From: Pelagomonas calceolata
Taxonomy: Eukaryota
NCBI GenBank assembly: GCA_918797485.1
Contig: CAKKNE010000006.1
Coordinates: forward strand, 2,604,001 to 2,668,000
Direction of reading: 5' to 3'
Length of the DNA stretch: 64,000 bases
A program made the translations under genes and the position numbers. The notes under the pieces are model-generated. The model was not told the DNA's origin and ran no database searches. It saw only the letters and a program-made list of their open reading frames with translations. Position 1 is the first letter of the stretch. Every line of letters starts with the position of its first letter. Below, in pieces: positions 13,051 through 40,100 of this stretch.

Positions 13051-13697
13051 GGAGGGTTAGTCATTTTGCGCGGTGAACGAGAGGGGTCGCGGCGGCGGCG
13101 TCAAGGGGGCTTGCTGCGGGGTCCAGACACGTCCGACGCGACCCGGGCACGCCTCCGGACACGCTCAGCGTCCGGCTCGGCGCGATCTTCGGCGAGCCAC
13201 AGAGGGCCTGGGCTCCACGGGCTCGAAGAGTCGTCTAGGGGCTCCCACGCGCTCGGGGCAGGCGGCCGCTCGCTGCGAGGGGCGCGTATCAACGAGCGTC
13301 AAATTGAAATGGAAGGCCACGCAAGCCATACGTTTTCGTCGATACAGCCCCGACTGGCAATTAAACCGTGCGCACGCCGCGTCGCAACTTGCACCAAAAC
13401 CGGCGCGCGCGCGTCAAAAGGCTCAGCACCCCACGGCAACGCCGCCGCGCGCGAAAGGGCTGCGTTTCCGCGCCGCGCGGGCGGCGCAGCGGTGGCCTTC
13501 CAAAAAATCGCGCCTATCGCCGCCCCACGGCGCGCGGCGCACGGCGGGCGGCGCGCGGGGCGCGCAGCGCGTCACACGCGCCGCGCCGGCGCCGCGCGGC
13601 CACAAAAACGCCGATGCGCACACTTGCACCTGACGCGCGCCCGACATCGCACCGACACGCATCTCACCACAAACCACCGCAGGCAAAAACTAACACG

Positions 13698-16600
13698 ATG
13701 GCCACTACCATGAACGCCATCGCCGACGCGATCCAGCCATCCGCCCTCGAGGCGCTGCTCACGCAGACCCTGGCCGACGAGGCCGGTTTGAACGACGTGG
13801 CGGAGGGCTTCAAGCCCATCCTCGCCTACGTCGCGTCCCTCGCGTCGAACCAGTGCGTCGCCGAGACCTTCCACATGTTCGAGTGGGAGAAGACCTGCAA
13901 GGCCTACCTCGCGCCCATCCTCGCCGACGAGGAGAAGTGCGCCGCGGTCACGAAGAAGTTCATGGACGAGTCCGAGAAGCGCGTGCCCAAGCGCGAGGTC
14001 GAGCTCGACATCCCCGAGGGCGAGGGCGAGATCTTGTGTAATGTCGAGTTCAAGCTCGCCTACGGCGGCAAGATCCTGCTCAACACGACGCACTTCCACG
14101 TGCGCCGCGGCCGCATCTACGGCCTCCTCGGCCACAACGGCTGCGGCAAGTCCACGCTCATGCGCGCCATCTCGTCGGGTGCCCTCGCGGGCTTCCCCGG
14201 CGCCGAGGAGCTCATGAAGCTCCGCGCCTGCTTCGTCGACCACGACATCGACGGCTCGGACGCGAACACGCCGACGATCGACTTCTGCCTCCAGGAGCCG
14301 GTCCTCGCGCCGCTCGGCCGCGAGAAGATCCGCGAGAAGCTCCTCGAGATGGAGTTCACGGAGGAGCTCATCAACAAGCCCATCTGCAACCTGTCGGGCG
14401 GCTGGAAGATGAAGCTCGCGCTCGCGCGCGCCGTCCTCCTGAACGCCGATCTCCTGCTCCTCGACGAGCCGACGAACCACCTGGACGTCCAGAAGCAGCA
14501 GTGGCTCTGCGACTTCCTCACGGGCCCGCAGTGCGAGCACGTCACGACGCTCGTCGTGTCGCACGACTCCAAGTTCCTCAACAAGGTGCTCTCGGACGTG
14601 ATCCACTACGAGAACATGCGCCTCAAGCGCTACACGGGCAACCTCGACCAGTTCGTCGAGCAGTGCCCCATGGCCAAGGCCTACTTCTCGATCCACGACA
14701 CGGAGATGAAGTTCACGTTCCCCGTGCCGGGCCCGCTCGAGGGCGTCAAGTCGCGCACCAAGGCCATCCTCCAGGCCAAGAACATCACGTTCACCTACCC
14801 GACGTACCGCGACCGCGTCCTTTACCTTCTTCGAAGACCGATTGGCGCAACGGTAGCGCGTCAGATTCCAGTCCTGAAGGTTACGTGTTCGAATCACGTA
14901 TCGGTCACTTGTTCGACGTCGCGTCGATGGCGTGGCGGAGGCGTAGCATTCCGCTTCCCTCGAGAGTACGAACGCGCGTCGACGGTACGTTCCCCCGCAG
15001 GCCCGAGGAGAAGGCCCTGGGCCCGTCGTGCAAGACGCGCTCCGGCAAGCCGACGCTCGAGGACGTCTCCGTTCAGGTGTCGCAGGCGTCGCGCATCGCG
15101 TGCATCGGCCCGAACGGCGCGGGCAAGTCGACGCTCATCAAGGTGCTCGTCGGCGAGACGAAGCCCGACGAGGGCTGCCCCGAGGTCTACCGCCACCAGA
15201 ACTGCCGCATCGCCTACGTGGCGCAGCACGCGTTCCACCACATCGAGCAGCACCTCGAGATGTCGCCCGTCGAGTACATCCAGTGGCGCTTCTCCGGCGG
15301 CCTCGACAAGGAGCAGCAGGCCATGGAGGCGGCCCAGATGTCCGAGGAGGAAAAGGCCCAGCTCAAGCAGCCCTTCATCGTCTACCTCAAGGAGCTCGCC
15401 GCCGAGCTCGACGAGGCCGGCAACGCGACGGGCGAGCGCGAGATCATCTTCGAGAAGATGGAGCCGCTCAAGAAGGGCCAGAAGCCGCCGCCGGTCGACC
15501 CGGTCAACGGCATCTTCCCGAACTGCGTGCGCACGATCAAGCAGCTCATCGGCCGCCGCACGCGCCACGGCGACTACGAGTACGAGGTCAAGTGGGGCGA
15601 CAAGGAGATGGTCTCCATGGACCCGAAGAACAACCTCTACGTGCCCAAGGTCGTGCTCGAGACGCACGGCTTCCACAAGCTCATGAAGGCGATCGACGAC
15701 AAGATCGCCGCCGAGGCCGGCAACGTCAAGCCGCTCACGACGACGGCGATCCAGAGGCATTTGGACGACTTCGGCCTGCACGAGGAGTTCGGCACCTACG
15801 GCAAGATGAAGAACCTGTCGGGCGGCCAGAAGGTGAAGTGCGTCATCGGCGCGTCCATGTGGTTCTGCCCGCACATCGTCGTGCTCGACGAGCCGACGAA
15901 CTACCTCGACCGCGACTCGCTCGGCGCCCTCTCGCGCGCCATCAAGGAGTTCCAGGGCGGCGTGCTCATGATCTCGCACAATGCCGAGTTCTTCGGCGAC
16001 ATCGCGCCCGAGGTCTGGGAGGTGCCCGGCGACCAGAAGGTTCATGTGTCCGGCGCCGAGTGGATGGAGGCCGTTAAGGCGAAGGAATTAGCCGAGGCCA
16101 AGGCCAAGAAGAAGTCGATCCCGAAGCAGGACGACGACAAGTTTGACGCGCTCGGCAACAAGATCGAGACGGCCGTGGCGGCCGCGGACATCGACCGCGA
16201 CTACGTACCGCGACCGCGTCCTTTATATTTTCAACTCCGTGGCGCAATGGATAGCGTATCAGACTTCGAATCTGGGGGTTGCGGGTTCGAGTCCCGTCGG
16301 AGTTGACCGCGGAGGAGTCCGCCGACGGATGTTGTGGCCGAGTGGTCTAAACCCTGCGTGGGTGACCAGAGGCGCTGGTTTTAGGCACCAGTCTTCGGGC
16401 GTGGGTTCGAACCCCACCAACATCATGGCGGCTCCTCCTTCGACCGATTGGCGCAACGGTAGCGCGTCAGATTCCAGTCCTGAAGGTTACGTGTTCGAAT
16501 CACGTATCGGTCATTCATGAACGCGTGTCGACGGTACGACCCCTCCGCAGGTCAAGAAATTGACGAAGCAGCTCAAGGCGCTCAAGGAGCGCGTCAAGAA

Positions 16601-16763
16601 GGGCGACGCTTCTGCTGAGGATGAAATGTATGAAGTAGAGGAGGCCTTGGACAAGGCCAACGCGATCCTCAAGAAAGAGAAGGAGGCCGCGAAAAAAGAA
16701 AAGGAGGCCGCGAAGGCCCTGGCCAAGGCCGCCAAGGCCAAGGAGAAGAAGTCGAAGAAGTAG
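13698..16763 (+). CDS. Elongation factor 3 (eEF3)-like twin ABC ATPase; exons 13698-14803, 15001-16204, 16551-16763; 840 aa
   Basis: ABC1 (GHNGCGKST, LSGGWKMKLALARA, LLLDEPTNHLD); ABC2 (GPNGAGKST, AYVAQHAFHH, LSGGQKVK, VLDEPTNYLDRDSLGAL) with the chromodomain-like insert GRRTRHGDYEYEVKW; Lys-rich tail; GT-AG introns 14804-15000 and 16205-16550 restore frame; very strong codon bias. Confidence 0.92.
14836..14907 (+). tRNA. tRNA-Trp(CCA), inside intron 1 of the eEF3-like gene
   Basis: 72-nt cloverleaf: acceptor GACCGAT/ATCGGTC+A, D arm GCGC-AACGGTA-GCGC, anticodon arm TCAGA-TTCCAGT-CCTGA, T arm ACGTG-TTCGAAT-CACGT. Confidence 0.93.
16233..16305 (+). tRNA. tRNA-Arg(UCG), inside intron 2 of the eEF3-like gene
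   Basis: Acceptor AACTCCG/CGGAGTT+G, D arm GCGC-AATGGATA-GCGT, anticodon arm TCAGA-CTTCGAA-TCTGG, T arm GCGGG-TTCGAGT-CCCGT. Confidence 0.95.
16328..16425 (+). tRNA. tRNA-Leu(UAG) with a 20-nt non-canonical D-loop intron (16350-16369), inside intron 2 of the eEF3-like gene
   Basis: Acceptor GATGTTG/CAACATC+A; removing the insert gives the canonical GCCGAGTGGTCTAAGGCG; anticodon arm CTGGT-TTTAGGC-ACCAG; short variable arm TC-TTCG-GG; T arm GTGGG-TTCGAAC-CCCAC. Confidence 0.9.
16442..16513 (+). tRNA. tRNA-Trp(CCA), identical second copy, inside intron 2 of the eEF3-like gene
   Basis: 72/72 identical to 14836-14907. Confidence 0.93.
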
Positions 16764-16927
16764 ACGCCTTCGGCGGCGAAGTCGGGGGAGTAGACGCCTC
16801 CGGCGGCGGTTGTCGCGCCCCGACCACACGGGTCGTCGCGTCGGTCGCCTATTCAAGTTTTAGTCCCCCCGCACGTATCCCCTGTGATAAACCTTGAACT
16901 AAACTGCCTTACCCGGGATTTGATTGA

Positions 16928-17903
16928 CTACATCCCCAGCAGAAATCCAGTAGCGTCGGCCATGGAGTCGCTCGACACGATAGACGCCAGGACCTCCTTG
17001 CCACAGCTCTTCGCCTGGTCCCACGCGTAGTCCTTCGCCACCTCCGTCGCAAACTTCTTCGCGAGACCTGTGCCGGACGCAGCCGCCGACGTGCCGGACG
17101 CCGCCGCCGAGAGGTCCAGCGAGGCCGACGACGACAGCGAGACGCTCGGCGGGGGCAGCACCGCGCACTGCGTCGCGGCGGGCGCCGCCGGCGCGACGAC
17201 CGTGAACGACCGGCCGGGTCCTAGGCGTTGGGGCACCGTCGCTCGAATCGTCTGGCCCGACGGGACTTTGACGAGTAATTGTGATCCAGGCGGTTTGTCC
17301 GGCGGGCACGTGACGCTGACGCGGTGGACGGGAGGCGCCGCCAGCGCGGGCACGAGTATCGTAAACGTCTCGCCCGGCGCGCAGCCTTCCGGGATCGACG
17401 CGCGGGCCTTGCGGCCGTCGGGAATTTGCACGGTGATCGGCTTGCCCGCGTGACCGTCGGCCGGACACGTCACCCGCACGCGCAGCGGCGCCGGCGCCTT
17501 CGCCTTGGGGCTCGCGGGCGGCGTCGGGGCTTCGGGCGGCGGAGAGATGGGCCGCGGCGGCAGCGGCGGCGGCGCTACGGGCGCCCGCGTCGCTTTCCTG
17601 AGCTTCTGCTTCAGGAGCGATTGCTGCAGTTTGTTCGTAAGACCGCACTGCTCGAAGACCAAGGCGAGGTCGTCGTCCGACGCGTTTGCCTGTGCGGAAA
17701 TCAACCAGTGAGTTAGGTTCTAAATGCGCCCGACATTTGATTTCCACACAGGCATTTGCGAGGTAGTCGCCGTCGATGCCCGCTTCTCGCATCTTGTCGG
17801 CGGCGCCGGCGAACTGCGTCCCGAAGCCGGCGACGACGGCGCGGACCTGGTCCGCGTCGAGCGTCTCGAGCGGGCCGTCGACCTTGGACGCGGTGGCGCC
17901 CAT
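16928..17903 (-). CDS. Putatively N-myristoylated protein with a SAM-like domain and two small beta-rich repeats; one GC-AG intron 17690-17759
   Basis: MGATAS start; REAGIDGDYL|ANASDDDL...LTNKLQQ is SAM-like; repeated VTCPxD..G..I.V..P.G..V.IP....PG..FT unit. Confidence 0.75.
17690..17751 (-). mobile_element. Introner-like TIR element
   Basis: TIR ctgtgcggaaatcaa / ttgatttccacacag; 8-bp TSD gcgtttgc / gcatttgc. Confidence 0.85.
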
Positions 17904-21633: not shown

Positions 21634-23742
21634 ATGGGCGCTGGCGGCTCGACGGAAGGCGCACACCTCACCAGAGGCACCAGCAAAAACAACCTCGGCG
21701 TGCTGTTTGACCGCGAGGCCGAGGAGGCCTTCCATGCCGCCGCGACTGGTCCGGAAGACGAACTCGCCGTGCCCTGGTCCGTGGCCGACGCGTACGTGAA
21801 GACGCGCGACGAGCGCTGGCGCGACCCGAAGCACGTCTTGTTTCAGAATCTGAAACAATTCCGCGTCGCGCGGGTCGAGATCGAGAAGATCGCGAACGAG
21901 AAGATCAAGGGCACAATCCGTGAGATCCCGTGGCGCGACGGCGACGCGTGCCAACAGCGCGGCCTCGCCGGCAAGCCGGCCGCGTCGCTCGACGCGCTGT
22001 ACGCGATCGCCAACCTGGCGTGCAAAGTCTACCAGGTGATCCTGACGGACATCTGTAAGGGCGGCCCACCCCTGAACCTGGCACCGCTCAAGGGCCGCGC
22101 GCGAGCCGAAGAAAAGGCGCGCAACGAATACGCGGACAAGCAGGCGCCGTGCTACTCGTGGCTCTTCGACATCGTGAGAGGCTCCGTGTACTGCGACCAC
22201 GAGGACGACCTGGTCGCGCTCTGGAAAAAGATCGAGGCGGACCCGCGCATCGAAATTGTCCGAACGAAAAATCGTTTCAATCCCCCAGAATTCAACGGCT
22301 ACCGCGACATCATGATGAACGTGGCCGTTGACGTGGATACGCCTGCCGGGAAGATATCGCACCTCTGCGAGCTCCAGATTCACCTCACTGCAATTAAGAA
22401 GTCGGAGCCGATGCACAAGAGTCACGCCGTCTACGAGTTCTTTCGATCGTTCTTTTTGGGGAACGCAGAGGCGGTCGAGAAGCGGCTGGACATGTTCTGC
22501 GCGCTGCCCGTCGACGACGCTAAAGATGCGGACGAGCTTGTGGACCACGTGCTCGGGTCCGACGCGGACGCGAGTTTGCTCGAGGGGCTCTGTGAATTGC
22601 TCACGTCGATCCAGGAGAACGCGGGCGTCGTGAAAGTCCGGGAAGCCATCTTAGCGGAGCATGAGCGCGAGTTTGGCGCGGAGAGCAAGGAGGTGGGCGG
22701 GGCGCTGTATGATCTTGGGCTCGCGTACTATGATCTCGGCAACCAAGCCAAGAATCGCGACGTGCTGGAGCGCGCGCTCCCGATCTACGAGCGCGAGTAC
22801 GGTAGTGACAGCACGGAGATGTCCGGTTTGTTGAATAATCTCGGGAACGCGTACGGCTTTTTAGGCGACCACGCGAAGTCGCGAGACATTTATGAGCGCG
22901 CGCTCGCGATCGACGAGCGGGCGTACGGCCGTGACCACCCGGAAGTGGCCCCCACGCTGACGAGCCTCGGGGACGCGCACAACCAATTGGGCGACTACGC
23001 CAAGGCGCGAGACATGCTAGAGCGCGCGCTCGCGATCAAGGAGCGGGCGTACGGCCGCGATCACGTGAATGTGGCCAGCACGCTGACGAACCTCGGGACC
23101 GCGTACGGCGCCTTAGGCGACCCCGCGAAGGCGCGAGACATGCTGGAACGCGCGCTCGCGATCGACGAGCGGACGTACGGCCGCGACCACCCGGAAGTGG
23201 CCAAGACGCTGGAGAACCTTGGGTGTGCGTACGGCGACTTAGGCGACAACGCGAAGCTGCGAGACATGCTGGAGCGCGTGCTCGCGATCAAGGAGCGGGC
23301 GTACGGCAGCGAGCACCCGAGTGTGGCCATCACGCTGAATAACCTCGGGACCGCGTACTGCGACTTAGGCGACCCCGCGAAGGCGCGAGATGTCCTGGAG
23401 CGCGCGCTCGCGATCGACGAGCGGGCGTACGGCCGCGACCACGCGGACGTGGCCGGCACGCTGATGAACCTTGGGTGTGCGTACGGCGACTTGGGCGACC
23501 CGGCGAAGAAGCGAGACATGCTGGAGCGCGCGCTCGCGATCGAGGAGCGGGCGTACGGCCCCGATCACATTGATATAGCCCCCTCGCTGTTCAACCTCGG
23601 AAGCTTGCACGAGGATCTAGGCGAGAAGGCTAAGGCGCGCGAGTTCATCGCGCGCGCTCTCGCGATTGCCGAGCGCACATACGGAAGCGACCATCCTCGT
23701 ACCGATATGTGCCGAAGGCACCTCGCCAAATTATCATCGTGA
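21634..23742 (+). CDS. Putatively N-myristoylated RelA/SpoT-like nucleotidyltransferase domain plus about 8 TPR repeats
   Basis: MGAGGS; APLKGRARAEEK, DIVRGS, KNRF, GYRDIMMNV, CELQIH; 42-aa kinesin-light-chain-type TPRs. Confidence 0.85.
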   Translation: MGAGGSTEGAHLTRGTSKNNLGVLFDREAEEAFHAAATGPEDELAVPWSVADAYVKTRDERWRDPKHVLFQNLKQFRVARVEIEKIANEKIKGTIREIPWRDGDACQQRGLAGKPAASLDALYAIANLACKVYQVILTDICKGGPPLNLAPLKGRARAEEKARNEYADKQAPCYSWLFDIVRGSVYCDHEDDLVALWKKIEADPRIEIVRTKNRFNPPEFNGYRDIMMNVAVDVDTPAGKISHLCELQIHLTAIKKSEPMHKSHAVYEFFRSFFLGNAEAVEKRLDMFCALPVDDAKDADELVDHVLGSDADASLLEGLCELLTSIQENAGVVKVREAILAEHEREFGAESKEVGGALYDLGLAYYDLGNQAKNRDVLERALPIYEREYGSDSTEMSGLLNNLGNAYGFLGDHAKSRDIYERALAIDERAYGRDHPEVAPTLTSLGDAHNQLGDYAKARDMLERALAIKERAYGRDHVNVASTLTNLGTAYGALGDPAKARDMLERALAIDERTYGRDHPEVAKTLENLGCAYGDLGDNAKLRDMLERVLAIKERAYGSEHPSVAITLNNLGTAYCDLGDPAKARDVLERALAIDERAYGRDHADVAGTLMNLGCAYGDLGDPAKKRDMLERALAIEERAYGPDHIDIAPSLFNLGSLHEDLGEKAKAREFIARALAIAERTYGSDHPRTDMCRRHLAKLSS
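22700..23700 (+). repeat. 126-bp tandem repeats encoding TPRs
   Basis: gagcgcgcgctcgcgatc-like motif recurs at 22894, 23020, 23146, 23272, 23398 and 23524, a 126-nt period. Confidence 0.9.
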
Positions 23743-23869
23743 GCTAGAGCCGCTTTCACCTCCTCTACAGATATCGAGTCCTCTCCGTCCCAGGCGCGAA
23801 ACGCCTCCGTATATGCGGTTCCCCCCACGCGCTGCCGACGCGACATGACTAAAGAAAGAACACTTAATC

Positions 23870-28112: not shown

Positions 28113-31100
28113 CTAGGCCGGCGCCGCGGCGGCCCGCTTCGCCAGCGCTTCAGAAAAAGCCTGTTCGCGCAGGGCAGCCGTCAAATCCGCGGGCGGGAGC
28201 GGCTCCTCGAGCGCAATCGATTCCGTGATCGCGTGGCAGACCCTATCTTTTTCCTCCGTCGAGAGCTCCTTCAGCGCCTTTAAACCATGTTTCATCCATA
28301 CTTTTTCCCGCACTTCGAGCGTGCAAGCCAGGCCGGACTCCGCGTGAAAGCATTGACACTCGATGACACGACGTTTCTCGTACAAGGACGCCATGACGAG
28401 CTGGCCGTCCAACTCCACACCCAACGTCAATAAAGCGCGGGACGTCCGCTGCGGAGAGCCCGGTCGTAAGTTATCAGGAGGCGCCGTGAGGTGGACCTCC
28501 AGAGGTTTTTCTTCGTCCGCAGGCGCCAAGACACTCTTCAGTAAAGCCTCTCCTAATATGTCCTTGTCTGCATCGGTCAGATGCGACGTCACGGGCACGT
28601 ACTTCGCCTGCTCGAGAACGTGAAGTGAAAACACGCGCTCGACCGCCCTCCAGGGACGAAGGGGGTCCATGGCCCTTACTCTAAAGCCCTCGGCCTCCTC
28701 CATCAACGTGACGGCGTAGCCCTCGTCGGTAGTGCCGTCGAAGGTCGGGGCCTCCCTCGGCTGTTTGTTGACGGCCAGTAGCAAACTCTCGAGGTCGTCG
28801 CCCTCGGAATTGTCGTCGATGACCAGTACATCCGCGGTCCGGTTCGGCGCGAAGATTAATCGATCGCCGGCGCCGTGGGCTTGCGGTACTAGAGTAAGTC
28901 CTTCACAAACTCTCTCAGCAATCAGATACGCGGCCGCGTCATCGTTGAGTGCGGAAGGCTCGCAGCCCGCCTCATCACAAGACACGATCAGCGAGTAGTC
29001 CATGAGCGCGTCGGGCTCGAAGGCCTCCACGCTCAACGCACCGTCGTCGTTGTAGATCGAACAGAGTAAATGCCGTCCGTCTTGGACCTCGACGCCCTCG
29101 GTATACAAGGCCCTTCTTTTAGTAGCCTGGCCGGGCGTGCCCGTCTTCTTGAGGGTCGTGAGTTCTGCAAAATCAGACAGGAACGGCGCCTCGAGCGCTT
29201 CGTCCTCCGCCGTCCAGGGCCGTCGGTCGGTCGTCGTGACGGGCGCCGGCTCGTCCGCCGCCGCGCCGATGTTCGCGATACCAGGTACGGAGTCCGGGAC
29301 CTTGGCCTCTTCGGCCGGCGACGCCACGCGCACCGCCGGGAAGGGGTCGTATTTCAGGGAGCCGTCAATGACCAAGTCCTTCAGTATACTTCGAGCGAGC
29401 GACGCCTGCTGTCTTCCGCTGAGCTCCGTGAGCGCGCCACCCAAATGACTCCACTGCTCTTGTAGAACAGTGCACTCCCAGAGCTTCTGGGTCCGCGTGT
29501 CGTAGGCGTGGATGCCCAGGTTGCCGTCCTGGTCGACAACCGACGCGAGGAGAAAAGCCTCGCCGACTTTCACGCCCTCCGTGAGGATCGCTCGCGCCGA
29601 CGCGACGGCGGTCTTGGGGCGCTGGGGGCTCGGCGGCGCCTCGGGCTCCGCGGCGGCGGCGGGCGCCTCGGTGGCTGGCTCCGCGGCCGGCTCCGGCGCC
29701 GGGGCCACTTGGGGCTCGGGCGCCGACTCCTCGACGGCGGCCACGTCGGGCTTGGGAGGGCTCGGCGCCTCCTCGACGGCGGCCGGCTCCTCGGCGGCGG
29801 CCGGCTCCGGGCTGCTCGGCTCGGCCTCGGCCTCGGTCGGCTCAGGCGCCGCGGCGGCCGGCGGCTCCGATGGAGCTGCTTCGTCGGCAGCCGGCGTCTC
29901 GTCAGCCGGCTCGGGCGCCGGATCCGCCGCGGGCTCGGCCGGAGGCTCGTCCGCCGGAGGCTCGGCATCCGCCGCAGGCTCGGCGGCCGGAGGCTCAGCG
30001 TCGACTGCCGGCTCGGCGGCCGGCTCGTCGGCCGGAGGCTCGGCGCTCGGCTCGTCGGCCGGCGGCTCAGGCGTCGGATCCGCCGCGGGCTCGGCCGGAG
30101 GCTCGTCTGCGGCTGCCGGCTCGGCGGCCGGCTCGTCCGCCGGAGGCTCGGCATCGGCTGCCGGCTCGGCGGCCGGCTCGTCCGCTGGAGGCTCGGCATC
30201 CGCCGCAGGCTCGGCGGCCGGCTCGGCGGCCGGCTCGTCCACCGGAGGTTCGGCATCGGCCGGAGGCTCGGCGCTCGGCTCGGCAGCCGGTTCAGGAGTA
30301 GCAGCCTTGGGCGTCGGCGGAGCGCTCGGCTCCGGAGTAGCAGCCTTGGGCGTCGGCGGAGCGCTGGGCTCCGGTGTGGCGGCCTTGGGCGTCGGCGGAG
30401 CGCTCGGCTCCGGAGTCGCGGCCTTGGGCGTCGGCGGAGCGCTCGGCTCCGGAGTCGCGGCCTTGGGCGTCGGAGGAGCGCTCGGCTCCGGAGTCGCGGC
30501 CTTGGGCGTCGGCGGTGCGCTGGGCTCCGGATTGGGCTCAGCGGGCGGCTCGGCGACGTCTTCGTCCGCGGGCGGCGCTTCCGCCGGGTCCGCGAGGGGC
30601 GCGCCGCCGTCGCCGCCGTCATCCTTTGTCGCGACCGTGCCGTCGTCGACCGTCGAGTCGTCCTGCGCCGCGACGACGGCAGCCGAGATCTCGGCCGCGG
30701 CCTCCTGCGCCGCCTCGCTCGGCTCGGCGTCCACGGCCGGCGCCGCGTCGTCCACGGCCTCGCTCGGCGGCGTGGGCGTGGGCTCGGGCGTCGGCGGTGA
30801 TGGCGTCGGCTCAGCCGAAGGCTCAGGCGTCGGATCTGCCTGTGGATCTGGCGTCGGCTCGGCCGGCGGCTCAGCCGCGGGCTCGGCGTCTGGCTCCGGC
30901 GTGGCAGCCTTGGGCGACGGTGGCGCGCTGGGCTCCGGCGTAGGGTCAGCGGCAGGCTCCGGGTCGGCAGCAGGCTCAGGGTCGGCCGCAGGCTCCGGCG
31001 TAGGGTCCGCGGCAGGCTCAGGGTCGGCGGCGGGCTCCGGCACAGGGTCGGCGGCTGGCTCAGGATCGGCGGCGGGCTCCGGCGCAGGGTCCGCAGCAGG

Positions 31101-34100
31101 CTCCGGGTCGGCAGCAGGCTCCGGCGCAGGGTCCGCGGCAGGCTCAGGGTCGGCGGCGGGCTCCGGCGCAGGGTCGGCGGCAGGCGCAGGGTCCGCGGCA
31201 GGCTCAGGGTCAGCTGCAGGCTCCGGCGCAGGGTCCGCGGCAGGCTCAGGGTCGGCGGCGGGCTCCGGCGCAGGGTCGGCGGCAGGCGCAGGGTCCGCGG
31301 CAGGCTCAGGGTCAGCTGCAGGCTCCGGCGCAGGGTCCGCGGCAGGCTCAGGGTCGGCGGCGGGCTCCGGCGCAGGGTCGGCGGCAGGCGCAGGGTCCGC
31401 GGCAGGCTCAGGATCAGCTGCAGGCTCCGGCGCAGGGTCCGCGGCAGGCTCAGGATCAGCTGCAGGCTCCGGCGCAGGGTCCGCGGCAGGCTCAGGGTCA
31501 GCAGCAGGCTCCGGCGCAGGGTCCGCGGCAGGCTCAGGGTCCGCAGCGGGCTCCGGTGCAGGGTCCGCGGCAGGCTCAGGGTCCGCAGCGGGCTCCGGCG
31601 CAGGATCGGCGGCGGGCTCCGGCGCAGGGTCCGCAGCGGGCTCGCTAGGAGCTTCGGCTGCGACGCTGTCGTCCGCGGCTTCAGACGGCTCTGGCGTCGG
31701 TTCCGGCGTCGGCTCCGCGGGCGCGGCCGCGGGCTCCGACGGCGGCGTCGCTGGAGCGGCCGGCTCGGCCGCCTCGGGCGTCGGCGGAGCGCTCGGCTCC
31801 GGCGTGGCAGCCTTGGGCGTCGGCGGCGCGCTGGGCTCGGGCGTGGCGCTCGCGGCCGCCGCCGGCGCGGCGGCCTTGGGCGGCGTCGCGGCGGCCGGCG
31901 CGTCGAGCGCGTCGGCGACGGCCGTGCCACCCGGAGGAGACGCCTCGGGCGGCGGCGTCGCGGCCGGCGAGGCCTGGGCCGCCTTGGGCGGCGTGCGCTC
32001 CGCATCTTCGGCCGGGGCCGGCGGCTCGACGGGCCGCGGCGACGCCTCGACGGCGGCCGCGAGGCGCGCCTCCTCGTCGGCGAGGGCCTGAGCCGCCGCC
32101 GCGGCCTTCTCGCGCTCCGCCTCCTCGAGGGCCGCCGCTTTAGCAGCCGCGGCCTCCTCCTCCTTGGCCTTCGCCTCCGCAGCAGCAGCCTTCTCCGCCT
32201 CGAGGCGCTCGGCCTCCTCGGCCGCGGCGAGCTTCTCCTGCTCCGCTTTCAGCGCTTCCTCCTCGGCGGCGAGTTCGGCCTCGAGGGCGGCCCGCTCGTC
32301 GTCGTTCGCTGACTGCAGCGCGGCCTTCTTCTCCTCCAGCGCTTGAGCTTTGGCGCGCTCCGCTTCCACAGCATCGGCCTTGGCCTGAGCGGCAGCGTCG
32401 GCCTTGGCCCGGGCCTCGGCCTGGGCTTGTGCCGCTTCGGCAGCCTGCGCCTCGGCCGCGCGCTTGGCCTCCTCCGCCTGTTGAGCCTTCTCCGCAGCTA
32501 AAGCTTGCTCCTCGTTCGCCTCGGCGGCTTTGGCCTGAGCCTCGACCAGCTCCTGTTCCGCCGCATCTTCCAACTTGATGGACGACTTCAAGACCTCCTG
32601 CTTCTCCTTCTGCTCCTCGACCAAGGTTTCGACCTCCTGGCGGCGGACCGACGCCTCGGCGCGCGCGCTCTCGACTGCCTCGGTGTGCGCCTGGACCTTC
32701 TCCAGATCTAGGTTGAGAGCCGCGGCCTGGGCCTCGGCTTCATTGGCGCGCCTTTCAGCTTCTTCCCGCTTGGCCTGGGCCTCGGCCTGGACCCTGGCTT
32801 CGTCGTCGGCGCGCCGTTGCGCCGCCTCGGCGGCTTCTCGCTCCTCCGCTTCTTTCTGGGCCGCCTGTGCGGCGGCCTCCTGCTCCTGCGCCGCTTTACG
32901 ATCGGCCTCGGCGGCCTTGGCAGCTTCTTCCTGTTCCAGAGCTTCGGCTTCGGCCAGCTTGGCCTGCTCCGCAAGTAAAGCCTCCTCCTCGGCGCGCATC
33001 TCCTCCTCCAGAGCCGCGCGCGCGGCGGCGTCGTCCTCCAGGGCGGCGAGCTTCGCTTTCTGTTCCGCGATCTTCGCTTCGCGTGCCTCTTGGGCCTCCT
33101 GGGCTTCACGCTTCGCTTGCGCGGCCGCGTCGGCCTTGGCCTGGGCCTCGGCCTGGAGGCGTGAAGCCTCCTCGGCCTGCTGGGCGGCTTTAGCTTTGGC
33201 CTCGGCCGCTTCGGCCCGCTTGGCCTCCTGGGCCTCGTTCGCGAGGCGCGCCTCTTCGGCCTTCTCGCGGGCGGCGACGAGCGCGCGCTCGGCCTCCTCC
33301 TCCTTCTTCAACTCGGCCTTGAGCTGCTCGGCCTTCTGGCGGGCGCTGTCCAACTGGGCCTCCGTGGCCTGGCGCCGCGCGGACGTCTCCTCGCGCGCGG
33401 ACTCGACCTCTTGGACCTGCTGCTCGACTTTTTCAAGGTCTAAACTCATCTGCGCGGCCTTGGCCTCGGCCTCCTCGGCGCGCCTCGCCGCTTCCTCGCG
33501 CTTGAGCTGGGCCGCTTCTTCTATTCGTTTGGCCTCGGCGGCGTCCTCGTCCGTTTGTTCGGGAGTTGGGTCGGCGGGCTCGGGCGTCGGATCTGCCTGG
33601 GGTTCCGGCGTCGGCTCGGCCGGCGGCTCGGCGACAGGCTCCGGCGTGGCGGCCTCGGGCGACGGCGGCGCGCTGGGCTCCGGCGTGGCGGCCTTGGGCT
33701 CCGGCGCAGGTTCGGCAGCAGGCTCAGGGTCGGCGGCAGGTTCAGGGTCCGCGGCAGGCTCAGGGTCCGCAGCGGGCTCCGGTGTAGGATCGGCAGCTGG
33801 CTCAGGGTCGGCAGCTGGCTCAGCCGGTGGCTCCGGGGCCGGCTCATCAGCGACCGGCTCATCAGCCGGGGGCTCCGCGGTCGGTTCCGAAGGAGGCTCG
33901 ACGGGCGGCTCAGCCGGAGGCGTGGGCTCCGCAGCGGGCTCCGGAGTGGGCTCCGCGGCCGGCTCATCAGCGGTGGGCTCAGCGGCCGGCTCGGCCGTAG
34001 GCTCCTCAGCGGGCTCCGCGGCCGGCTCATCAGCTGTGGGCTCATCAGCGGTGGGCTCATCAGTGGTGGGCCCGTCAGCGGCCGGCTCATCAGCGGCCGG

Positions 34101-37100
34101 CTCAGCTGGGGGCTCGGCCATAGGCTCAGCCGGTGGCTCCGCGGTTGGCTCATCAGCGGTCGGCTCAGCCGGAGGCTCCGCTGTGGGCTCATCAGCGGCT
34201 GGCTCATCAGCGGGCTCATCAGCAACCGGCTCAGCCGGAGGCTCCGCTGTGGGCTCATCAGCGGCCGGCTCCGCAGTCGGCTCGTCAGCGGCCGGCTCAG
34301 CCGCAGGCTCGGCCGTGGGCTCCTCAGCGGGCTCCGCGGTCGGCTCGTCAGCGGCCGGCTCAGCCGTCGGCTCGGCCGTAGGCTCATCAGCTGCGGGCTC
34401 CGCGGCTGGCTCATCAGCGCTCGGCTCATCAGCGGCCGGCTCAGCCGTAGGCTCAGCCGGTGGCTCCGCGGTTGGCTCATCAGCGGTCGGCTCATCAGCC
34501 GCCGGCTCAGCTGGTGGCTCAGCCGCAGGCTCGGCCGTGGGCTCCTCAGCAGGCTCCGCGGTCGGCTCCTCGGGCTCCGCGGACGGCTCCTCAGCGGTCG
34601 GCTCAGCGGTCGGCTCATCAGCGGCCGGTTCCGCGGTCGGCTCATCAGCCGCCGGCTCAGCTGGTGGCTCAACGGTGGGCTCCTCAGCGACCGGCTGAGC
34701 GGTGGGCTCCTCAGCGGGCTCCGCGGCCGGCTCATCGGCGGCTGGCTCAGCCGCAGGCTCATCAGCCGGGGGCTCCGCAGGAGGCTCCTCCGTCGGCTCA
34801 GTCGTAGGCTCGGCCGTGGGCTCCGCAGCGGGCTCCGCGTCTGGCTCCGAAGCAGGCTCGGCCGTAGGCTCCGGCGCAGGCGGCTCGGCCGTGGGCTCCT
34901 CCGACGCGGCTTCGGCGATAGGCTCGGCCGGCGCGGGCGCAGCAGCGGCCACGGCGGGCGTCGGCGCGGCCGCCGGGACGGGCTCCGGCGCCTCGTCGTC
35001 GCTCGCCTTGGGGCTCTCGGCAGCGGTGACCGGGTCGATGACCGTCACGGGCGACGACTCGCGCGGTGAGACGGCCTCGGGCACGGGTTCGCGCGGCGAC
35101 GCGGTGGAGAGCCGGGCCTGGCGCGCGGTCGCGGGCGTCGTCGGCGCCTCGGGCTCGGCCTCGGTCGGCGCGGGCTCCTCCTCGACGTCGATGGGCTCGG
35201 GCACCGGGACGGGCGCCGCCGCCGGTTCGACGGCTTCGACCGGCTCCTCGGGCGCGGAAGGCTCGTCGTCGGCCGCGACGTCGACGGCCGGGGGGCTCTC
35301 GGCGGCGGCGGGGGCGGCGACCGGCGAGGCCGCGGCGACCGGCGTGATGGGCGACGGCGGGGCGCTCGGCTCCGGGCTCGGCTCCGGCGTGGCCGCCTCG
35401 GGACGGGCGAACGGGACGGGCGTGGCCGTCGCGAGCGACCGCTCGTCGTCGTCGGCGACGGCGACCGGCGCGCGCGACGGCGCCGTCGCCGCCGTCGCGA
35501 GCGACTTCTCGGACACGGCGAGCGACCGCTCGTCCTCCTCGGGCTCCGGCGCCGCGAGCGGCTCGCCGAGCGCGACGCCGCTCGCCTTGCGCGCCTCGTA
35601 GGTCGTCTGGACCGTGGCGACGAAGGACGCGAGCTCCTGCGCCGACAGGGAAGCGAGCCGCGCCTCGAGGTGAGCCGCCAACCGCACCTCCACTAGAATG
35701 GAGCCGCGCTTGACCGACACGATCTCGATCTCTTCACTAGAAACGTCGAGCAGCTCCGAGAGCGACGACAGGAAGGCCTCCCGCTCGAACGTCTCGGGCG
35801 TGCCCTCGAGCCGCAGGACGCGCGTCGGCAGATTCACCTTCAGCGCGCCGTCCTCGACGGTCAGCCGCGACGTCAGGTCGATGCAGTCCTGCCGGTCGAA
35901 GTCGCCTGATAATTCCAGGGTATAAACCTGCCCCCGCGCGACCGACAGCGCCTCGACCACGAAACCTTCCGAGGATTTGAGGAAGGAGCACGACAGGCAC
36001 CCAGCGCCGGGCACATCAACCAAAGCCGTGTGCACGCAGTCGGCCGACTGCACCGGCGTATCATCATAGATCGTCGCGTCGCACGCATCTAAATCGTACG
36101 CGTCCGCATCCACGTCATCGGGCAGGCCCCACAACGCGATGGGGTCCTCGTAGGACCCCAGGCCCTTGGGCGCGGCGTCGCGCGCCCAGGGCGGCAGCGT
36201 CTCGACGACGCTGATGCGCTTCGTCTGCTCCTCGGGCGTCGTCATCGGCCGCGCCATCGTCGCCGGCGCGCTCGCGGGTTCGATCAGGGTCTCGTAGTCG
36301 TCGACCTTCGGTGAAGGAGCCGGCGCCGCAACGGGGGCGCCGACCGGGGCGAACGGCACGGGCGCGCCGACCGGCGCCGGCGCGAAGGCCGGCGCCGCGA
36401 CCGGCGTGGACGCCGCGCCGGGCGCCGGGGCCGGCGCGAACGCCGGCGCGCGGGCCGAAGCCATCGGCGACACCATCGGCGAGGCCGCGGCCGTGCCGGG
36501 CGCGGGCGCCGGCGCGCGGGCAGAAATCAAAGGCGAGGCCGCGACGCCCGGCGCGGGAGCGAGGGCCGGCGAGAGCGATGCCGGCGCCGGCGCGCGGGCC
36601 GAGACCATCGGAGAGGCTGCGGTGGCCGGCGCGGGCGCGCGGGCTGAAATCAGCGGCGACGCAGCGCCCGGCGCCGGCGCGGGCGCCAGCGGCGCGGGCG
36701 CCGGCGGGGCGAGCGCGACGGGCGCCAGCACGAGGTCCCGGGCCGCGGCCGCGACGGCGGCGTCGTCGGCGGCGTCGGCGGCCTGGGCGACGTCCGCCGT
36801 CTCCGCGAGGGCCTCGGCGAAGGCCTCGTCGGCCGCGGCCGCGACGTGGGCCGGCGGCGCCGGCGCCGGCGCCGCGGGCAGGGGCGCCGCTGCAGCCGGT
36901 GCCGGCGCGCTGACGGGTGCGGCGCTCGGCGCCGGGGCCGGGCCCTTCTTCTTCGGCCGCCGGCTGGGCGGCCGCGTCTCGGCCGTCTCGGCGTCCTGGA
37001 GGGCGACGTCCGTGCGGTCCGCGGCCGCGGCGTCGACCTGCTTCGACGGCGTGGCCGGCCCGACGACGATCGTCCCCGAGTCCTCGAGCGACACGTCGAG

Positions 37101-40100
37101 CTTGAGCGGGTCGCCGAGCGCCGTGCCGGGCGCCGGCGCGGCCTCCTCGAGGGGCTCGTCCTCCTTGAGGGGCGTCAGCTCGGGCCGCGGCGACCTCTCG
37201 AGGGGCGTCAGCGCGGCGGCCGGTGCCGGCGCGGTCGTGGGCGCCGCCGCGGCCGGTGCCGGTGCGCGGGCCGAGATCGGCGTCGACGCGGCCGGCGCGG
37301 GCGCGCGGGCTGAGACAATGGGCGAGGCAGCCACGCCCGGCGCGGGGGCCGGCGCGCTCACCGGCGCGATATGTAATGCAACAGCGACCTCCTCGGCCGC
37401 GCGCGCGGCCTCGGCCTCGGCAAACTCCACATCGTCGGGCTTGGCCTCGAGTGCCTCGACGCGCGCGGCCTCCGCCGCCACGGCGACGGCTTCCGGAGAG
37501 GCGCCGGGCGCCGGTGCTGGTGCGCTGATGTGCGCGAGCACGGCCGCGGCGACCGGCGCCTCGACCTCGGCCTCGTCGAGCGTCTTCTGGACGACGGCCT
37601 CGGCGGCGGCCTGGGCGACCTCCGCCGCGGCCGCGGGGCTGCCCGTGGCTTCCAGCGCCGCGGCGTAGGCCTCTTGATGGACCTCGTCGGAGACGCCCTC
37701 GACGACCTCCTCGGCCGCGGCGACGGCCTCCGCGTCCGCCGGCGCAGGTGCGGGCGCCGCGGCCGGGCCGTCGGCGGCGTCGGGGCCTGGTCCCGCCTCT
37801 TCGGCGGGGCCCGGCGCGCTCGCGGGCGCCGGCGACGGCGGCGCCGCGGCCACCGGCGCCGGCCCGGCGCTCTCCTCGAACTCGGAAAAGGCCTCGTCGT
37901 CGTAGGCGTCGGCGGACTCCTCGAGGGCCGCCGCCGCCGCGGGCGCGGCGACCGGCGCGGGCTCGTCGAAGTCCTCGGCGCCGTAGCTCTCGTCGACGTC
38001 CGTCGGCGCGGCGGACGGCGCGGCGGCGGTGGCGGGCTCGGGCGCCGCGACGGGTTCCGAAACTCCGGCGCTCTCCTCGAACTCCGAGGCCCCGTAGCTC
38101 TCGTCGACGTCCGTGGCGGCCACCGAGGGGGCGACCGAGGGCACCGCCGAGGGCACGACGACCTGCTCGGACGAGGCCTCCTCGGGCGCCGCGACGGGCT
38201 CGGGCGCCGCCTCGACGGCCGACGACGACAGCTCCGTCGGGCCCTTGCTCTCCTCGAGCTCCGAGAACTCGTCGGCGCCGTAGCTGTCCTCGACGTCCGT
38301 GGCGGCGGGCGTTGGTGTTGACGGTTCCGCGGCGGGCGCGGGCTCCGCGGCGTCCGCATCGGCGGCGGGCGCCGGCGCCGCCGGTCCGGCCGCGCCGGTG
38401 CTCTCCTCGAAGTCCGACGCGCCGTAGCTCTCGTCCGCGTCCGTGGCTGCGGCGGAGGGCGCGGCGGCTGGCTCCGACGCCTCGGAGGCGGGCGCGGGCC
38501 CGGCGACCGGCGAGGCGGGCTCAAAGTCCGAGGCGCCGTAGCTCTCGTCGACGTCTGTCGGAGCGGCGGAGGGCGCGGCGACCGGTGCGGGCTCGTCGAA
38601 CTCCTCGGCGCCGTAGCTCTCGTCGACGTCTGTCGGAGCGGCGGAGGGCGCGGCGGCGGGCGCGGCGACCGGTGCGGGCTCGTCGAACTCCTCGGCGCCG
38701 TAGCTTTCGTCGACGTCCGTTGGCGCGGCCGAGGGCGCGGCGGCAGGCGCGGCGACCGGTGCTGGCTCATCGAACTCCTCGGCGCCGTAGCTCTCGTCAA
38801 CGTCCGTCGGCGCGGCCGCCGGCTCGGCAGCCTCGGAGGCAGGCGCAGGTCCCGGCGCATCAGCGCTCTCCTCGAAGTCCTCGGCGCCGTAGCTCTCGTC
38901 GACGTCGGCGGCGTCGGCGGCGGGCGCCGGCGCGGGCTCGGCCGCCTCTTCGACGGCCGGCTCCTCGGCCGCTTCGGCCGCCGGCGCCGGCGCGGCGGCC
39001 TCCTCGCCTTCGGGCTCGGCGGCCTCCTCGGCCTCGGCTGCCGGCGCGGGCGCGGCGGCCTGAGCGTCGGCCTCGACGAGCACCGCGCGTTTCTCCGTCG
39101 CCGCGACGACGGCCGCGTGGTCCTCGGCCACGCCGGCCTCCGTGCACGCGAGCAGCGCGGCGTCGATGGCCTCGACGTCGGCCGCGGCCTCGAGCGCCGC
39201 GACGGCCGCGACGCGCTTCTCCTCCGCGAGCTTGAGGACGACCTCCTCGCGCCGCGCCGCCGCGGTCTTCGTGCCGTCGGCGTCGTCGGGCAGGCCGACC
39301 TCCGCGCAGTGTAGCAACGCGGCGTCGATCGCGGCGAGGTCCTCGGTCGCGCACGCGGCCTCGAGCGCCTTCAAGGCGTCGACGCGCGCCTGCTCGGCGA
39401 CGAGCTCCGCGCGTTTCGCGGAAGCCGTCACCCGTGCGTCGTCGTCGGCGGCGACGCCCACAGTATCAGCCTTGGCGAGGGCCGCGTCGATTAATTCGAC
39501 GGTGTCGGCCGCGGTTAATGAAGCGAGGGCCTCCTGCTTCGCCTCTTCCGCGGATAGGGCGGCTAATCGCTCCGCCTCGAGGCGGTCGGCCTCGGCCTGC
39601 TCCGCAGCTAACCTTTCCGCCTCGACGCGCTCGGCCTCGGCGGCCCGTTCGGCCTCCAAAGCAGCAAGCTCGTCGCGCCGCGCTTCGGCGGTGGCGAGGT
39701 CCTCGACGCCCTTCTCCTTCGCGTCAGCGAGCGCCGCCTCCAAAACGGCGAGGTCGTCGCCCTCCGCCGCCGCATTCAAAGCCTCCGCGGCAGCAGCCTT
39801 GTCCTCCTCGGCCTTCAGAGCAGCTAATCTCTCAGCCTCCAATCTCTCAGCCTCGGCCTTCTCCGCGGCTAATCTCTCGGCCTCGGCCTGTTCCGCAGCC
39901 AATCGCTCATTTTCAATACGCTCGGCCTCGAGCCGCTCAGCTTCGATTCTCTCAGCCTCTAACCGTTCGAGCTCGGCCTTTTCCGCGGCGAGTCGCTCGG
40001 CTTCCACTCGTTCCGCCTCCAGCCTCTCAGCCTCGATACGCTCAGCCTCCAGCCTCTCGGCCTCCAAACGCTGTCGCTCCGCTTCCTCAGCAGCCAATCT

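What the first reader, a model, noticed from the sequence alone, without database searches (positions are those of the whole stretch)
14804..16550. Translation-factor (eEF3-like) gene hosts four sense-strand tRNA genes in its two spliceosomal introns
Seen: intron 1 (14804-15000) holds tRNA-Trp(CCA). Intron 2 (16205-16550) holds tRNA-Arg(UCG), tRNA-Leu(UAG) and an identical tRNA-Trp(CCA), separated by only 22 and 16 nt. All four lie on the host sense strand, and removing the introns gives a clean 840-aa ORF. Known: snoRNAs are commonly processed from introns of translation-related host genes, whereas nuclear tRNAs are normally independent Pol III units. Inference: this may be a snoRNA-like arrangement in which tRNAs are released from a highly expressed Pol II pre-mRNA, linking tRNA supply to an elongation factor. 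I do not recall this being described, but cannot check the literature.
Basis: partly seen in the sequence, partly recalled or inferred. Interest (0 to 1): 0.93.

Follow-up and report, generated by a model that had tools for sequence, protein, structure and literature searches.

The report
Mobile introns that carry tRNA genes
In a marine pelagophyte alga, tRNA genes sit inside a family of look-alike mRNA introns found in many unrelated genes and at different positions of this one gene, so the introns have been copied around with their tRNA cargo, and the tRNAs are likely cut out of the spliced intron rather than made on their own.

Summary
Confirmed, and larger than reported. The arrangement is not special to this eEF3-like gene. 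The two introns share ends that can pair, and the same ends flank this tRNA-Trp at up to 46 host sites in marine metagenome contigs (ribosomal proteins, ubiquitin, cyclophilin, transporters). 71 of 76 scorable copies follow the donor motif or another cassette tRNA; 2 of 78 have a T4 run behind them. Near-identical versions of this gene carry the Arg-Leu-Trp intron here, 405 nt upstream instead, or nowhere, so the intron has been copied with its cargo. Release of tRNAs from the Pol II intron is my best reading (about 0.6) but is untested: poly(A) reads show no tRNA-boundary ends, and Pol III with TFIIIB is annotated in the likely species. Intronic tRNAs, a Pol II-made tRNA and introners are each known; I found no report of a tRNA-carrying mobile intron in nine searches. 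This scan noted intronic tRNA cassettes elsewhere in this genome (e1-10420690); the notes shown to me did not mention mobility.

The parts
13683..14803 (+). Exon 1 of the host gene (5' end of RNA near 13683; ATG at 13698), HEAT-less eEF3/New1-like ABCF ATPase
   Evidence: read ends pile at 13683; ABC_tran; ORF
14804..15000 (+). Intron 1, 197 nt, GT-AG, member of the tRNA-carrying intron family
   Evidence: 157 + 38 junction reads; present in 4 of 4 metagenome contigs that cover the site
14804..14818 (+). 5' arm of the terminal stem of intron 1 (family donor motif, starts at the splice site)
   Evidence: predicted fold; motif specificity
14836..14907 (+). tRNA-Trp(CCA), copy 1
14972..14988 (+). 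3' arm of the terminal stem of intron 1, 12 nt before the intron end
   Evidence: predicted fold
15001..16204 (+). Exon 2; its first 13 codons are an insert absent from Aureococcus and most other relatives
   Evidence: best solved relative yeast eEF3, E 3e-86; insert
15663..15664 (+). Empty site whose flanking exon letters travel with many single-Trp intron copies elsewhere (likely donor site)
   Evidence: up to 43 nt of left and 36 nt of right flank shared
15799..15800 (+). Empty site that holds the Arg-Leu-Trp intron in other versions of this gene (L004, L032, L057)
16205..16550 (+). Intron 2, 346 nt, GT-AG, three-tRNA member of the family; absent at this site in L004, L057, L076
   Evidence: junction reads; haplotypes
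16205..16219 (+). 5' arm of the terminal stem of intron 2
   Evidence: predicted fold, z -3.64 for the whole intron
16233..16305 (+). tRNA-Arg(UCG)
16328..16425 (+). tRNA-Leu(UAG) with a D-loop intron
16350..16369 (+). 20-nt D-loop intron of tRNA-Leu with bulge-helix-bulge-like geometry; removal not seen in poly(A) reads
   Evidence: fold; clean cloverleaf after removal, variable inserts at the same site in 11 other loci; no joint
16442..16513 (+). tRNA-Trp(CCA), copy 2, identical to copy 1
16521..16537 (+). 3' arm of the terminal stem of intron 2, 13 nt before the intron end
   Evidence: predicted fold
16551..16899 (+). Exon 3 (stop at 16761-16763; RNA 3' ends near 16892-16899)

Best explanation
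These two introns belong to a family of spliceosomal introns with pairing ends that carry intact tRNA genes, occur in many unrelated genes of this alga and sit at alternative positions of this gene, and their tRNAs are likely cut out of the intron RNA made by RNA polymerase II. Shown: both introns are spliced; the family ends and sense-strand cargo recur at many sites; the three-tRNA intron has three states in this gene, which needs at least one copying event. Inferred: after splicing, RNase P and tRNase Z cut each cloverleaf out of the intron and the tRNA-splicing endonuclease removes the D-loop intron of Leu. Inferred: the terminal stem brings the splice sites together across the folded cargo. 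Inferred: precise moves go through RNA (reverse splicing, reverse transcription, recombination; about 0.45), with repair-type copying that drags exon letters along as a second route (about 0.3) and a DNA transposase as a third (about 0.25).
For: Family: of 81 pelagophyte-type Trp copies in 83 loci, 46 lie directly behind the donor motif, 25 behind another cassette tRNA, 5 are cut by a contig end and 5 have neither. The exact donor motif occurs 55 times in 241,553 nt; 53 are followed by a sense tRNA and none lies on the opposite strand; a 54th precedes an interrupted tRNA-Leu. All 71 Rfam tRNAs in 20 loci chosen for their cassettes are co-oriented. Up to 46 distinct sites; hosts include RPL8, RPL7A, L24e, ubiquitin, cyclophilin, cold-shock, papain, nucleoside transporter. 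Ends pair better than shuffles (z<-2) in 40 of 52 introns, with a both-sides change in 3. At shared sites the spacers are nearly unalignable while ends and tRNA stay fixed. Mobility: each key junction in 2-3 separate contigs. For Pol II release: T4 within 25 nt in 2 of 78 copies (window background 105 of 2559) against T8-T9 in 2 of 3 unrelated eukaryotic Trp genes; next T4 lies 1320 and 344 nt behind the last tRNA of each intron; tRNA-Sec sits 2 nt behind Trp and a tRNA-Ser has an insert splitting its B box; intron-bearing sense poly(A) RNA at about 3% (11% in one run) of exon depth.
Against: No direct sign of release: no pile-up of read ends at tRNA boundaries, flat depth over the unique intron segments and no joint for the Leu D-loop intron in four poly(A) runs of one sample. 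A and B boxes of the four tRNAs here are intact. The P. calceolata gene table lists RPC1, 2, 3, 5, 6, BRF1, BDP1 and Maf1. The first tRNA sits at a rather constant 35 +/- 3 nt from the donor in 36 single-Trp introns, which would also fit an upstream Pol III element. 3 of 52 introns do have a T4-T6 run after Trp. All family statistics come from loci picked for holding tRNA-Trp, so they do not give the genome-wide share of intronic tRNAs. At least two contigs (L013, L048) look chimeric at the tRNA repeat, which inflates the site count. Most single-Trp hosts had no Pfam match, and splicing was read directly only for this gene.
Confidence: 0.6

Rival explanations
1. Same mobile intron family, but each cassette is an ordinary nested Pol III unit: the first tRNA's A and B boxes start a multi-tRNA transcript that runs on without a near terminator, and the intron only makes insertion into genes harmless.
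For: Intact A and B boxes; Pol III, BRF1, BDP1 and Maf1 annotated; constant distance from the 5' motif to the first tRNA; intronic tRNAs of C. elegans are described as Pol III-controlled though influenced by the host promoter (PMC4999229, section 8); no processing ends on poly(A) RNA.
Against: A nested Pol III gene could lie on either strand, yet none of 55 motif matches and none of 71 tRNAs is antisense; this weighs less than it seems, because a unit that carries its own splice sites is also kept only in sense. Terminators are missing at background rate. No TFIIIC term in 14,639 held rows of the gene table, a weak blank because the file is cut and SNAPc is not listed either.
Confidence: 0.27
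2. The introns are selfish introners that happened to capture tRNA genes; most intronic copies, including these four, are silent passengers and working tRNAs come from stand-alone genes elsewhere.
For: L076 lacks the three-tRNA intron, so this copy is dispensable; some copies have broken acceptor or T stems and some lie in sequence that looks non-coding; identity among copies could come from recent copying or gene conversion.
Against: No intact stand-alone copy with a terminator was found among 81 pelagophyte-type Trp copies; T-stem changes are on both sides in three variants; tRNA and ends stay fixed while spacers diverge.
Confidence: 0.09
3. One reading: a stable, gene-specific coupling of tRNA supply to an elongation factor, as for snoRNAs in translation genes.
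For: Host is eEF3/New1-like; several multi-tRNA cassettes are in ribosomal-protein and other housekeeping genes; intron 1 is present in all 4 contigs that cover it.
Against: Many hosts unrelated to translation; intron 2 is polymorphic; Trp reads from other loci outnumber this locus about 15-20 to 1; no codon match to the host.
Confidence: 0.04

Closest known systems
Introner elements (Micromonas, Aureococcus, 956 putative ones in Pelagomonas calceolata; fungal introner-like elements)
   Same: Repeated spliceosomal introns with conserved, complementary ends, GT or GC donors and AG acceptors, at unrelated sites (PMC9481584 Supplementary Note 3; PMC9860276; PMC11282704).
   Different: Cargo of one to at least five intact tRNA genes; interior spacers hypervariable; no target duplication beyond 1-2 nt; 3' arm lies 8-14 nt inside the end. 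The main texts of PMC9860276, PMC12130899 and PMC9481584 do not contain the word tRNA.
Intronic tRNA genes of C. elegans and Arabidopsis
   Same: Canonical tRNA genes inside introns of protein genes: 47% in C. elegans, with host-promoter influence (PMC4999229); 19 sense overlaps in Arabidopsis (PMC6152437).
   Different: In the parts read, those are individual genes in ordinary introns, with no shared intron ends, tight cassettes or mobility described.
Pol II-made tRNA-Sec of Trypanosoma brucei and the GUT15 intronic tRNA-like RNA of Arabidopsis
   Same: Show that a cloverleaf can be cut from a Pol II precursor (PMC2943599, PMC6152437).
   Different: Single exceptional RNAs; the trypanosome gene lies in a polycistron, not an intron, and GUT15's product is not a canonical tRNA.
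Intron-encoded snoRNAs (recalled, not tested)
   Same: Sense-strand small RNA in introns of highly expressed housekeeping genes, with flanking stems.
   Different: Cargo is tRNA; the intron itself, not just the small RNA, is the repeated unit; processing dependence not shown here.
Ectopic bulge-helix-bulge tRNA introns of archaea and Cyanidioschyzon merolae (recalled; named in earlier scan notes)
   Same: D-loop insert in tRNA-Leu with helix and 3-nt bulges.
   Different: Here nested inside an mRNA intron; removal not observed.

Membership tests
Spliceosomal (U2-type) intron | GT-AG ends, exact removal from poly(A) RNA, restoring the ORF | tested here: met
Introner element | Family of similar introns at unrelated sites | tested here: met
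   up to 46 sites, conserved 17-nt 5' end and 3' end
Introner element | Recent gain: filled and precisely empty alleles | tested here: met
   three states of this gene, gap 0 at empty sites
MITE-type (DNA transposon) introner | Terminal inverted repeats at the very ends | tested here: inconclusive
   complementary arms in 40 of 52, but the 3' arm is followed by a constant 8-14 nt tail
MITE-type (DNA transposon) introner | Target-site duplication of 2 nt or more | tested here: not met
   repeat at the junction is 1-2 nt in 33 of 37 complete sites, 3-4 nt in 4, and is mostly the G after AG
MITE-type (DNA transposon) introner | Autonomous transposase element with the same ends | not testable with these tools
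   no genome held
Pol III type-2 tRNA gene | Intact A and B boxes | tested here: met
   Rfam alignments of the four tRNAs; not met for the cassette tRNA-Ser in other loci
Pol III type-2 tRNA gene | Oligo(T) terminator close behind the gene | tested here: not met
   2 of 78 within 25 nt; next T4 1320 and 344 nt away
Pol III type-2 tRNA gene | TFIIIC and Pol III occupancy, own 5'-triphosphate start | not testable with these tools
   gene-table searches only
snoRNA-like intron-processed RNA | Sense orientation inside a spliced intron of a Pol II gene | tested here: met
snoRNA-like intron-processed RNA | Mature RNA depends on host transcription and processing | tested here: inconclusive
   poly(A) reads show unprocessed intron RNA only
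tRNA-derived SINE | Degenerate tRNA head, A-rich or simple-repeat tail, long target duplication | tested here: not met
   intact central tRNA, no tail, no long duplication
Canonical eEF3 | Two ABC domains of the eEF3/New1 type | tested here: met
   E 3e-86 to yeast eEF3, 1e-80 to New1
Canonical eEF3 | N-terminal HEAT-repeat region (about 1040 aa in all) | tested here: not met
   840 aa with the first ABC domain at residue 128; near relatives of 710-920 aa lack the N-terminal families seen in the longer hits

The most novel reading that the evidence does not exclude
This alga makes most of its tRNAs, including tRNA-Sec and tRNAs with broken internal promoters, by cutting them out of spliced Pol II introns, has lost or sidelined TFIIIC, and its tRNA gene set lives on a family of mobile introns that still move, so tRNA gene dosage varies between ocean strains.
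Probability: 0.3. Interest if true: 0.95.

Novelty: new variant of a known kind. Interest (0 to 1): 0.82.

Why it matters
Textbook nuclear tRNA genes are independent Pol III units; a 2026 review of photosynthetic eukaryotes states this without exception in the sections read (PMC13578239, sections 20-21). A lineage whose tRNA genes ride on mobile mRNA introns would be a domesticated introner with an essential cargo, and it would tie tRNA supply to splicing and to host promoters. It also gives a rare natural case of one spliceosomal intron at two positions of one gene, in a culturable alga, which makes the mechanism of intron transposition testable. Standard annotation misses it: the genome paper of the likely species does not mention tRNA genes in its main text.

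Tried and rejected
No whole genome is held, so no genome-wide tRNA census. The tRNA-Trp pattern found nothing in viral or prokaryotic genome contigs. The window-wide repeat search was swamped by a repetitive gene at 29.6-40.4 kb and added nothing. ARAGORN's call at 39043-39137 lies in that repeat and has no Rfam support: rejected. ARAGORN's Gly(acc), Arg(gcg), Thr(cgt), Ala(cgc) and long Ala(tgc) calls in cassettes are misreadings of intron-bearing Leu and Ser genes. The T4 at 16379 is inside the Leu anticodon arm and was not counted as a terminator. The search for RNase P or tRNase Z ends and for removal of the Leu D-loop intron in poly(A) reads found nothing; poly(A) selection makes this a weak test. 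The acceptor pattern used for counting is permissive (241 of 1231 control windows), so counts rest on the donor motif (27 of 1231). The lineage of the second end type (L015, L054, L060, L082) could not be named: best protein hit 72%, no organism given. Assembly artefact as the cause of the alternative intron position: rejected because the exon-donor, acceptor-exon and empty junctions each lie in unique sequence and recur in 2-3 separate contigs, and the empty 16204 site is on contigs that hold another intron, so they are not cDNA. Dropped before counts: 5 low-GC viral copies and 3 copies from other eukaryotes, of 89; 3 of the 86 matches were repeat listings.

Full report
Observation. Stranded poly(A) reads skip exactly 14804-15000 (157 and 38 reads in X21, X24) and 16205-16550 (949, 286, 234 and 40 reads in X21-X24). 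These four runs carry one sample label; contigs of a further run (X5, RNA by guess) show both junctions too. The RNA starts near 13683 and ends near 16895. tRNA-Leu has a 20-nt D-loop insert (16350-16369) that folds with a short helix between bulges; without it ARAGORN reads a clean Leu(TAG).

Host and organism. Exon 2 matches yeast eEF3 (E 3e-86) and New1 (1e-80) best among solved structures, but the protein lacks the long N-terminal region of eEF3. The closest named relatives are Aureococcus anophagefferens (86% on exon 2, 82% overall) and other pelagophytes. The organism is therefore a pelagophyte. An earlier scan note names Pelagomonas calceolata for this genome; I did not verify that, but the GC content of most of the window (0.56-0.69) fits the 63% of PMC9481584.

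The two introns are relatives. They share their first 20 nt and a near-identical 3' end, and in both the first 15 nt are predicted to pair with an arm 12-13 nt before the end. Reads and contigs of the same organism showed the same tRNAs with other flanks, so I scanned metagenome contigs for the tRNA-Trp anticodon arm and got 83 loci with 89 copies. Five copies are on low-GC viral contigs and three belong to other eukaryotes; these were set aside. Of the remaining 81, 46 lie directly behind the same donor motif, 25 directly behind another tRNA, 5 are cut by a contig end and 5 have neither. Conversely, 53 of 55 exact motif matches in 241,553 nt precede a sense tRNA, one more precedes an interrupted tRNA-Leu, and none is on the opposite strand. 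This sample was chosen for tRNA-Trp, but the 64-kb window, which was not, has only the two exact matches described here. Flanks fall into 46 sites, an upper figure since L013 and L048 look chimeric. Pfam on 54 exon pieces named hosts for 22, a few of them weakly: RPL8, RPL7A, L24e, ubiquitin, cyclophilin, a cold-shock protein, a papain protease, a nucleoside transporter, zf-CW, a dehydrogenase, a KH protein and others; 32 had no match. In RPL8 and the protease the profile continues across the intron. Cassettes hold Ala, Arg, Gly, Leu, Sec, Ser, Trp and Val genes, and all 71 Rfam matches in 20 loci are co-oriented.

Selection on ends and cargo. Ends pair better than shuffled partners in 40 of 52 complete introns. 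The 5' hexamer GTACCG faces CGGTAC in 33 of 40, and a second type GCGCGG faces CCGCGC in 3 of 3. At three sites seen in 3-4 contigs each, exons differ by a few percent, ends and tRNA are almost fixed, and the spacers are nearly unalignable. Purifying selection explains this; gene conversion among copies could contribute.

Mobility. Six contigs carry this same gene (exon 1, where covered, 98.0-99.6% identical to the window). The Arg-Leu-Trp intron follows 16204 in the window, L016 and L048; it follows 15799 in L004, L032 and L057, with the 16204 site precisely empty in L004 and L057; both sites are empty in L076. The intron is alignable end to end between the two positions. Intron 1 is present in 4 of 4. 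Whether this is a move or a duplication with reciprocal loss, the intron was copied to a new site with its tRNAs. L076 groups with L004 and L057 in the 3' part of the gene, so it may be a recombinant or a loss. Separately, about 17 single-Trp copies of roughly 148 nt elsewhere carry 4-43 nt of exon matching this gene around 15663/15664 (the shortest matches could be chance), which points to that site as a donor and to a second, imprecise route of copying. Sites have C before (24 of 37) and G after (36 of 37) the intron and no longer duplication. Because the 3' arm is followed by a constant tail up to AG, the copied unit equals the intron. That fits an RNA route better than a MITE, but this is inference.

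How the tRNAs are made. For release from the Pol II intron: no terminator (T4 within 25 nt in 2 of 78 copies, background 4%; T8-T9 in 2 of 3 unrelated eukaryotic copies), with the next T4 1320 and 344 nt behind the last tRNA of each intron; tRNA-Sec 2 nt behind Trp and a tRNA-Ser whose B box is split; strict sense orientation; and intron-bearing sense poly(A) RNA at about 3% of exon depth in three runs and 11% in one. Against or neutral: no read ends pile up at tRNA boundaries and no read lacks the Leu D-loop intron; A and B boxes here are intact; the first tRNA keeps a near-constant distance from the donor; Pol III, BRF1, BDP1 and Maf1 are annotated in P. calceolata. No TFIIIC term was found in the 14,639 rows held, but the file is cut and SNAPc is not listed either, so this is a lead only. 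I put Pol II release at 0.6 and nested Pol III at 0.27.

Literature. Nine searches gave no report of tRNA-carrying mobile introns or of intronic tRNAs in pelagophytes; the library lacks most subscription papers. Seen: PMC4999229 (abstract, section 8 part 1): 47% of C. elegans tRNA genes are intronic and host promoters affect them. PMC2943599 (abstract, Discussion): Pol II-made tRNA-Sec, and a suggestion that intronic tRNAs may be Pol II-made. PMC6152437 (abstract, section 9): GUT15. PMC9481584 (passages; Supplementary Note 3; term searches of the gene table; file 5 unreadable, file 4 cut, Figure S3 logo not visible, so this family may be among its 956 putative introners). PMC9860276 (passages, section 8). 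PMC12130899 (term search only). PMC11282704 (passages). PMC13578239 (abstract, sections 20, 21). Huff et al. 2016 was not read. snoRNA processing, RNase P, tRNase Z and reverse splicing are recalled knowledge.

Earlier scan notes. e1-10420690 reported tRNA clusters in mRNA introns elsewhere in this genome with a similar guess on processing; it is an AI note and not independent support. Others report permuted and multi-intron tRNAs, and one a convergent tRNA pair, so not every tRNA gene of this genome need be in such a cassette.

Verdict. Real, and part of a lineage-wide family of mobile, tRNA-carrying spliceosomal introns. Each ingredient is known; the combination was not found in print. New variant of a known kind, interest 0.82; categorically new if Pol II release and TFIIIC independence are shown.

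Noticed in passing
L028, L039, L049, L053, L067, L084-L087: Giant-virus-like contigs (GC 0.28-0.32; four are in IMG/VR, one labelled GVMAG; HSP70 next door) carry a stand-alone tRNA-Trp almost identical to the pelagophyte one, outside any intron, with AT-rich upstream DNA and a T-run about 40 nt behind. Likely captured from the host lineage.
   Followed up: partly
window 15002-15040: A 13-aa insert begins exactly at intron 1; it is in the 29 closest spliced relatives (90% or more) and absent from Aureococcus and the rest, one of which has a different insert there. It may be exon sequence that arrived with the intron; a resemblance to a cyclophilin loop was not tested.
   Followed up: partly
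window 15074-15253 (loose read ends): A second, more yeast-like eEF3 paralogue appears to be expressed in the same runs and dominates in X24.
   Followed up: no
L018, L063, L077 (RPL8 introns); L015: tRNA-Sec genes inside cassettes, 2 nt behind tRNA-Trp in RPL8, leaving no room for an upstream promoter.
   Followed up: partly
L021, L027, L055, L058, L080: tRNA-Ser(UGA) with a 25-29-nt hairpin insert that splits the B box; tRNA-Leu(UAA) occurs both with and without a D-loop insert.
   Followed up: partly
L004, L027, L058: A tRNA-Trp-like 3' half with an apparently inverted anticodon loop and no 5' half sits in three cassettes; remnant or piece of a split gene.
   Followed up: no
L015, L054, L060, L082: A second end type (GC donor, different 3' arm, different Trp T stem) in polyubiquitin, RPL7A, papain and KH genes, possibly another pelagophyte species.
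   Followed up: partly
window 16001-16763: Versions of the gene differ by up to 15% just before intron 2 and up to 23% in exon 3, but by 1-2% in exon 1, suggesting old polymorphism near the intron site.
   Followed up: no
window 29600-40400: Long, highly repetitive Pro/Ala/Glu-rich coding region on the minus strand; 126-nt tandem repeats at 22706-23761.
   Followed up: no
window 54273-54306 and 58340-58373; similar at 17690-17752: A 34-nt inverted repeat 4 kb apart, resembling the end of an intron at about 17700; probably another introner family without tRNA.
   Followed up: no
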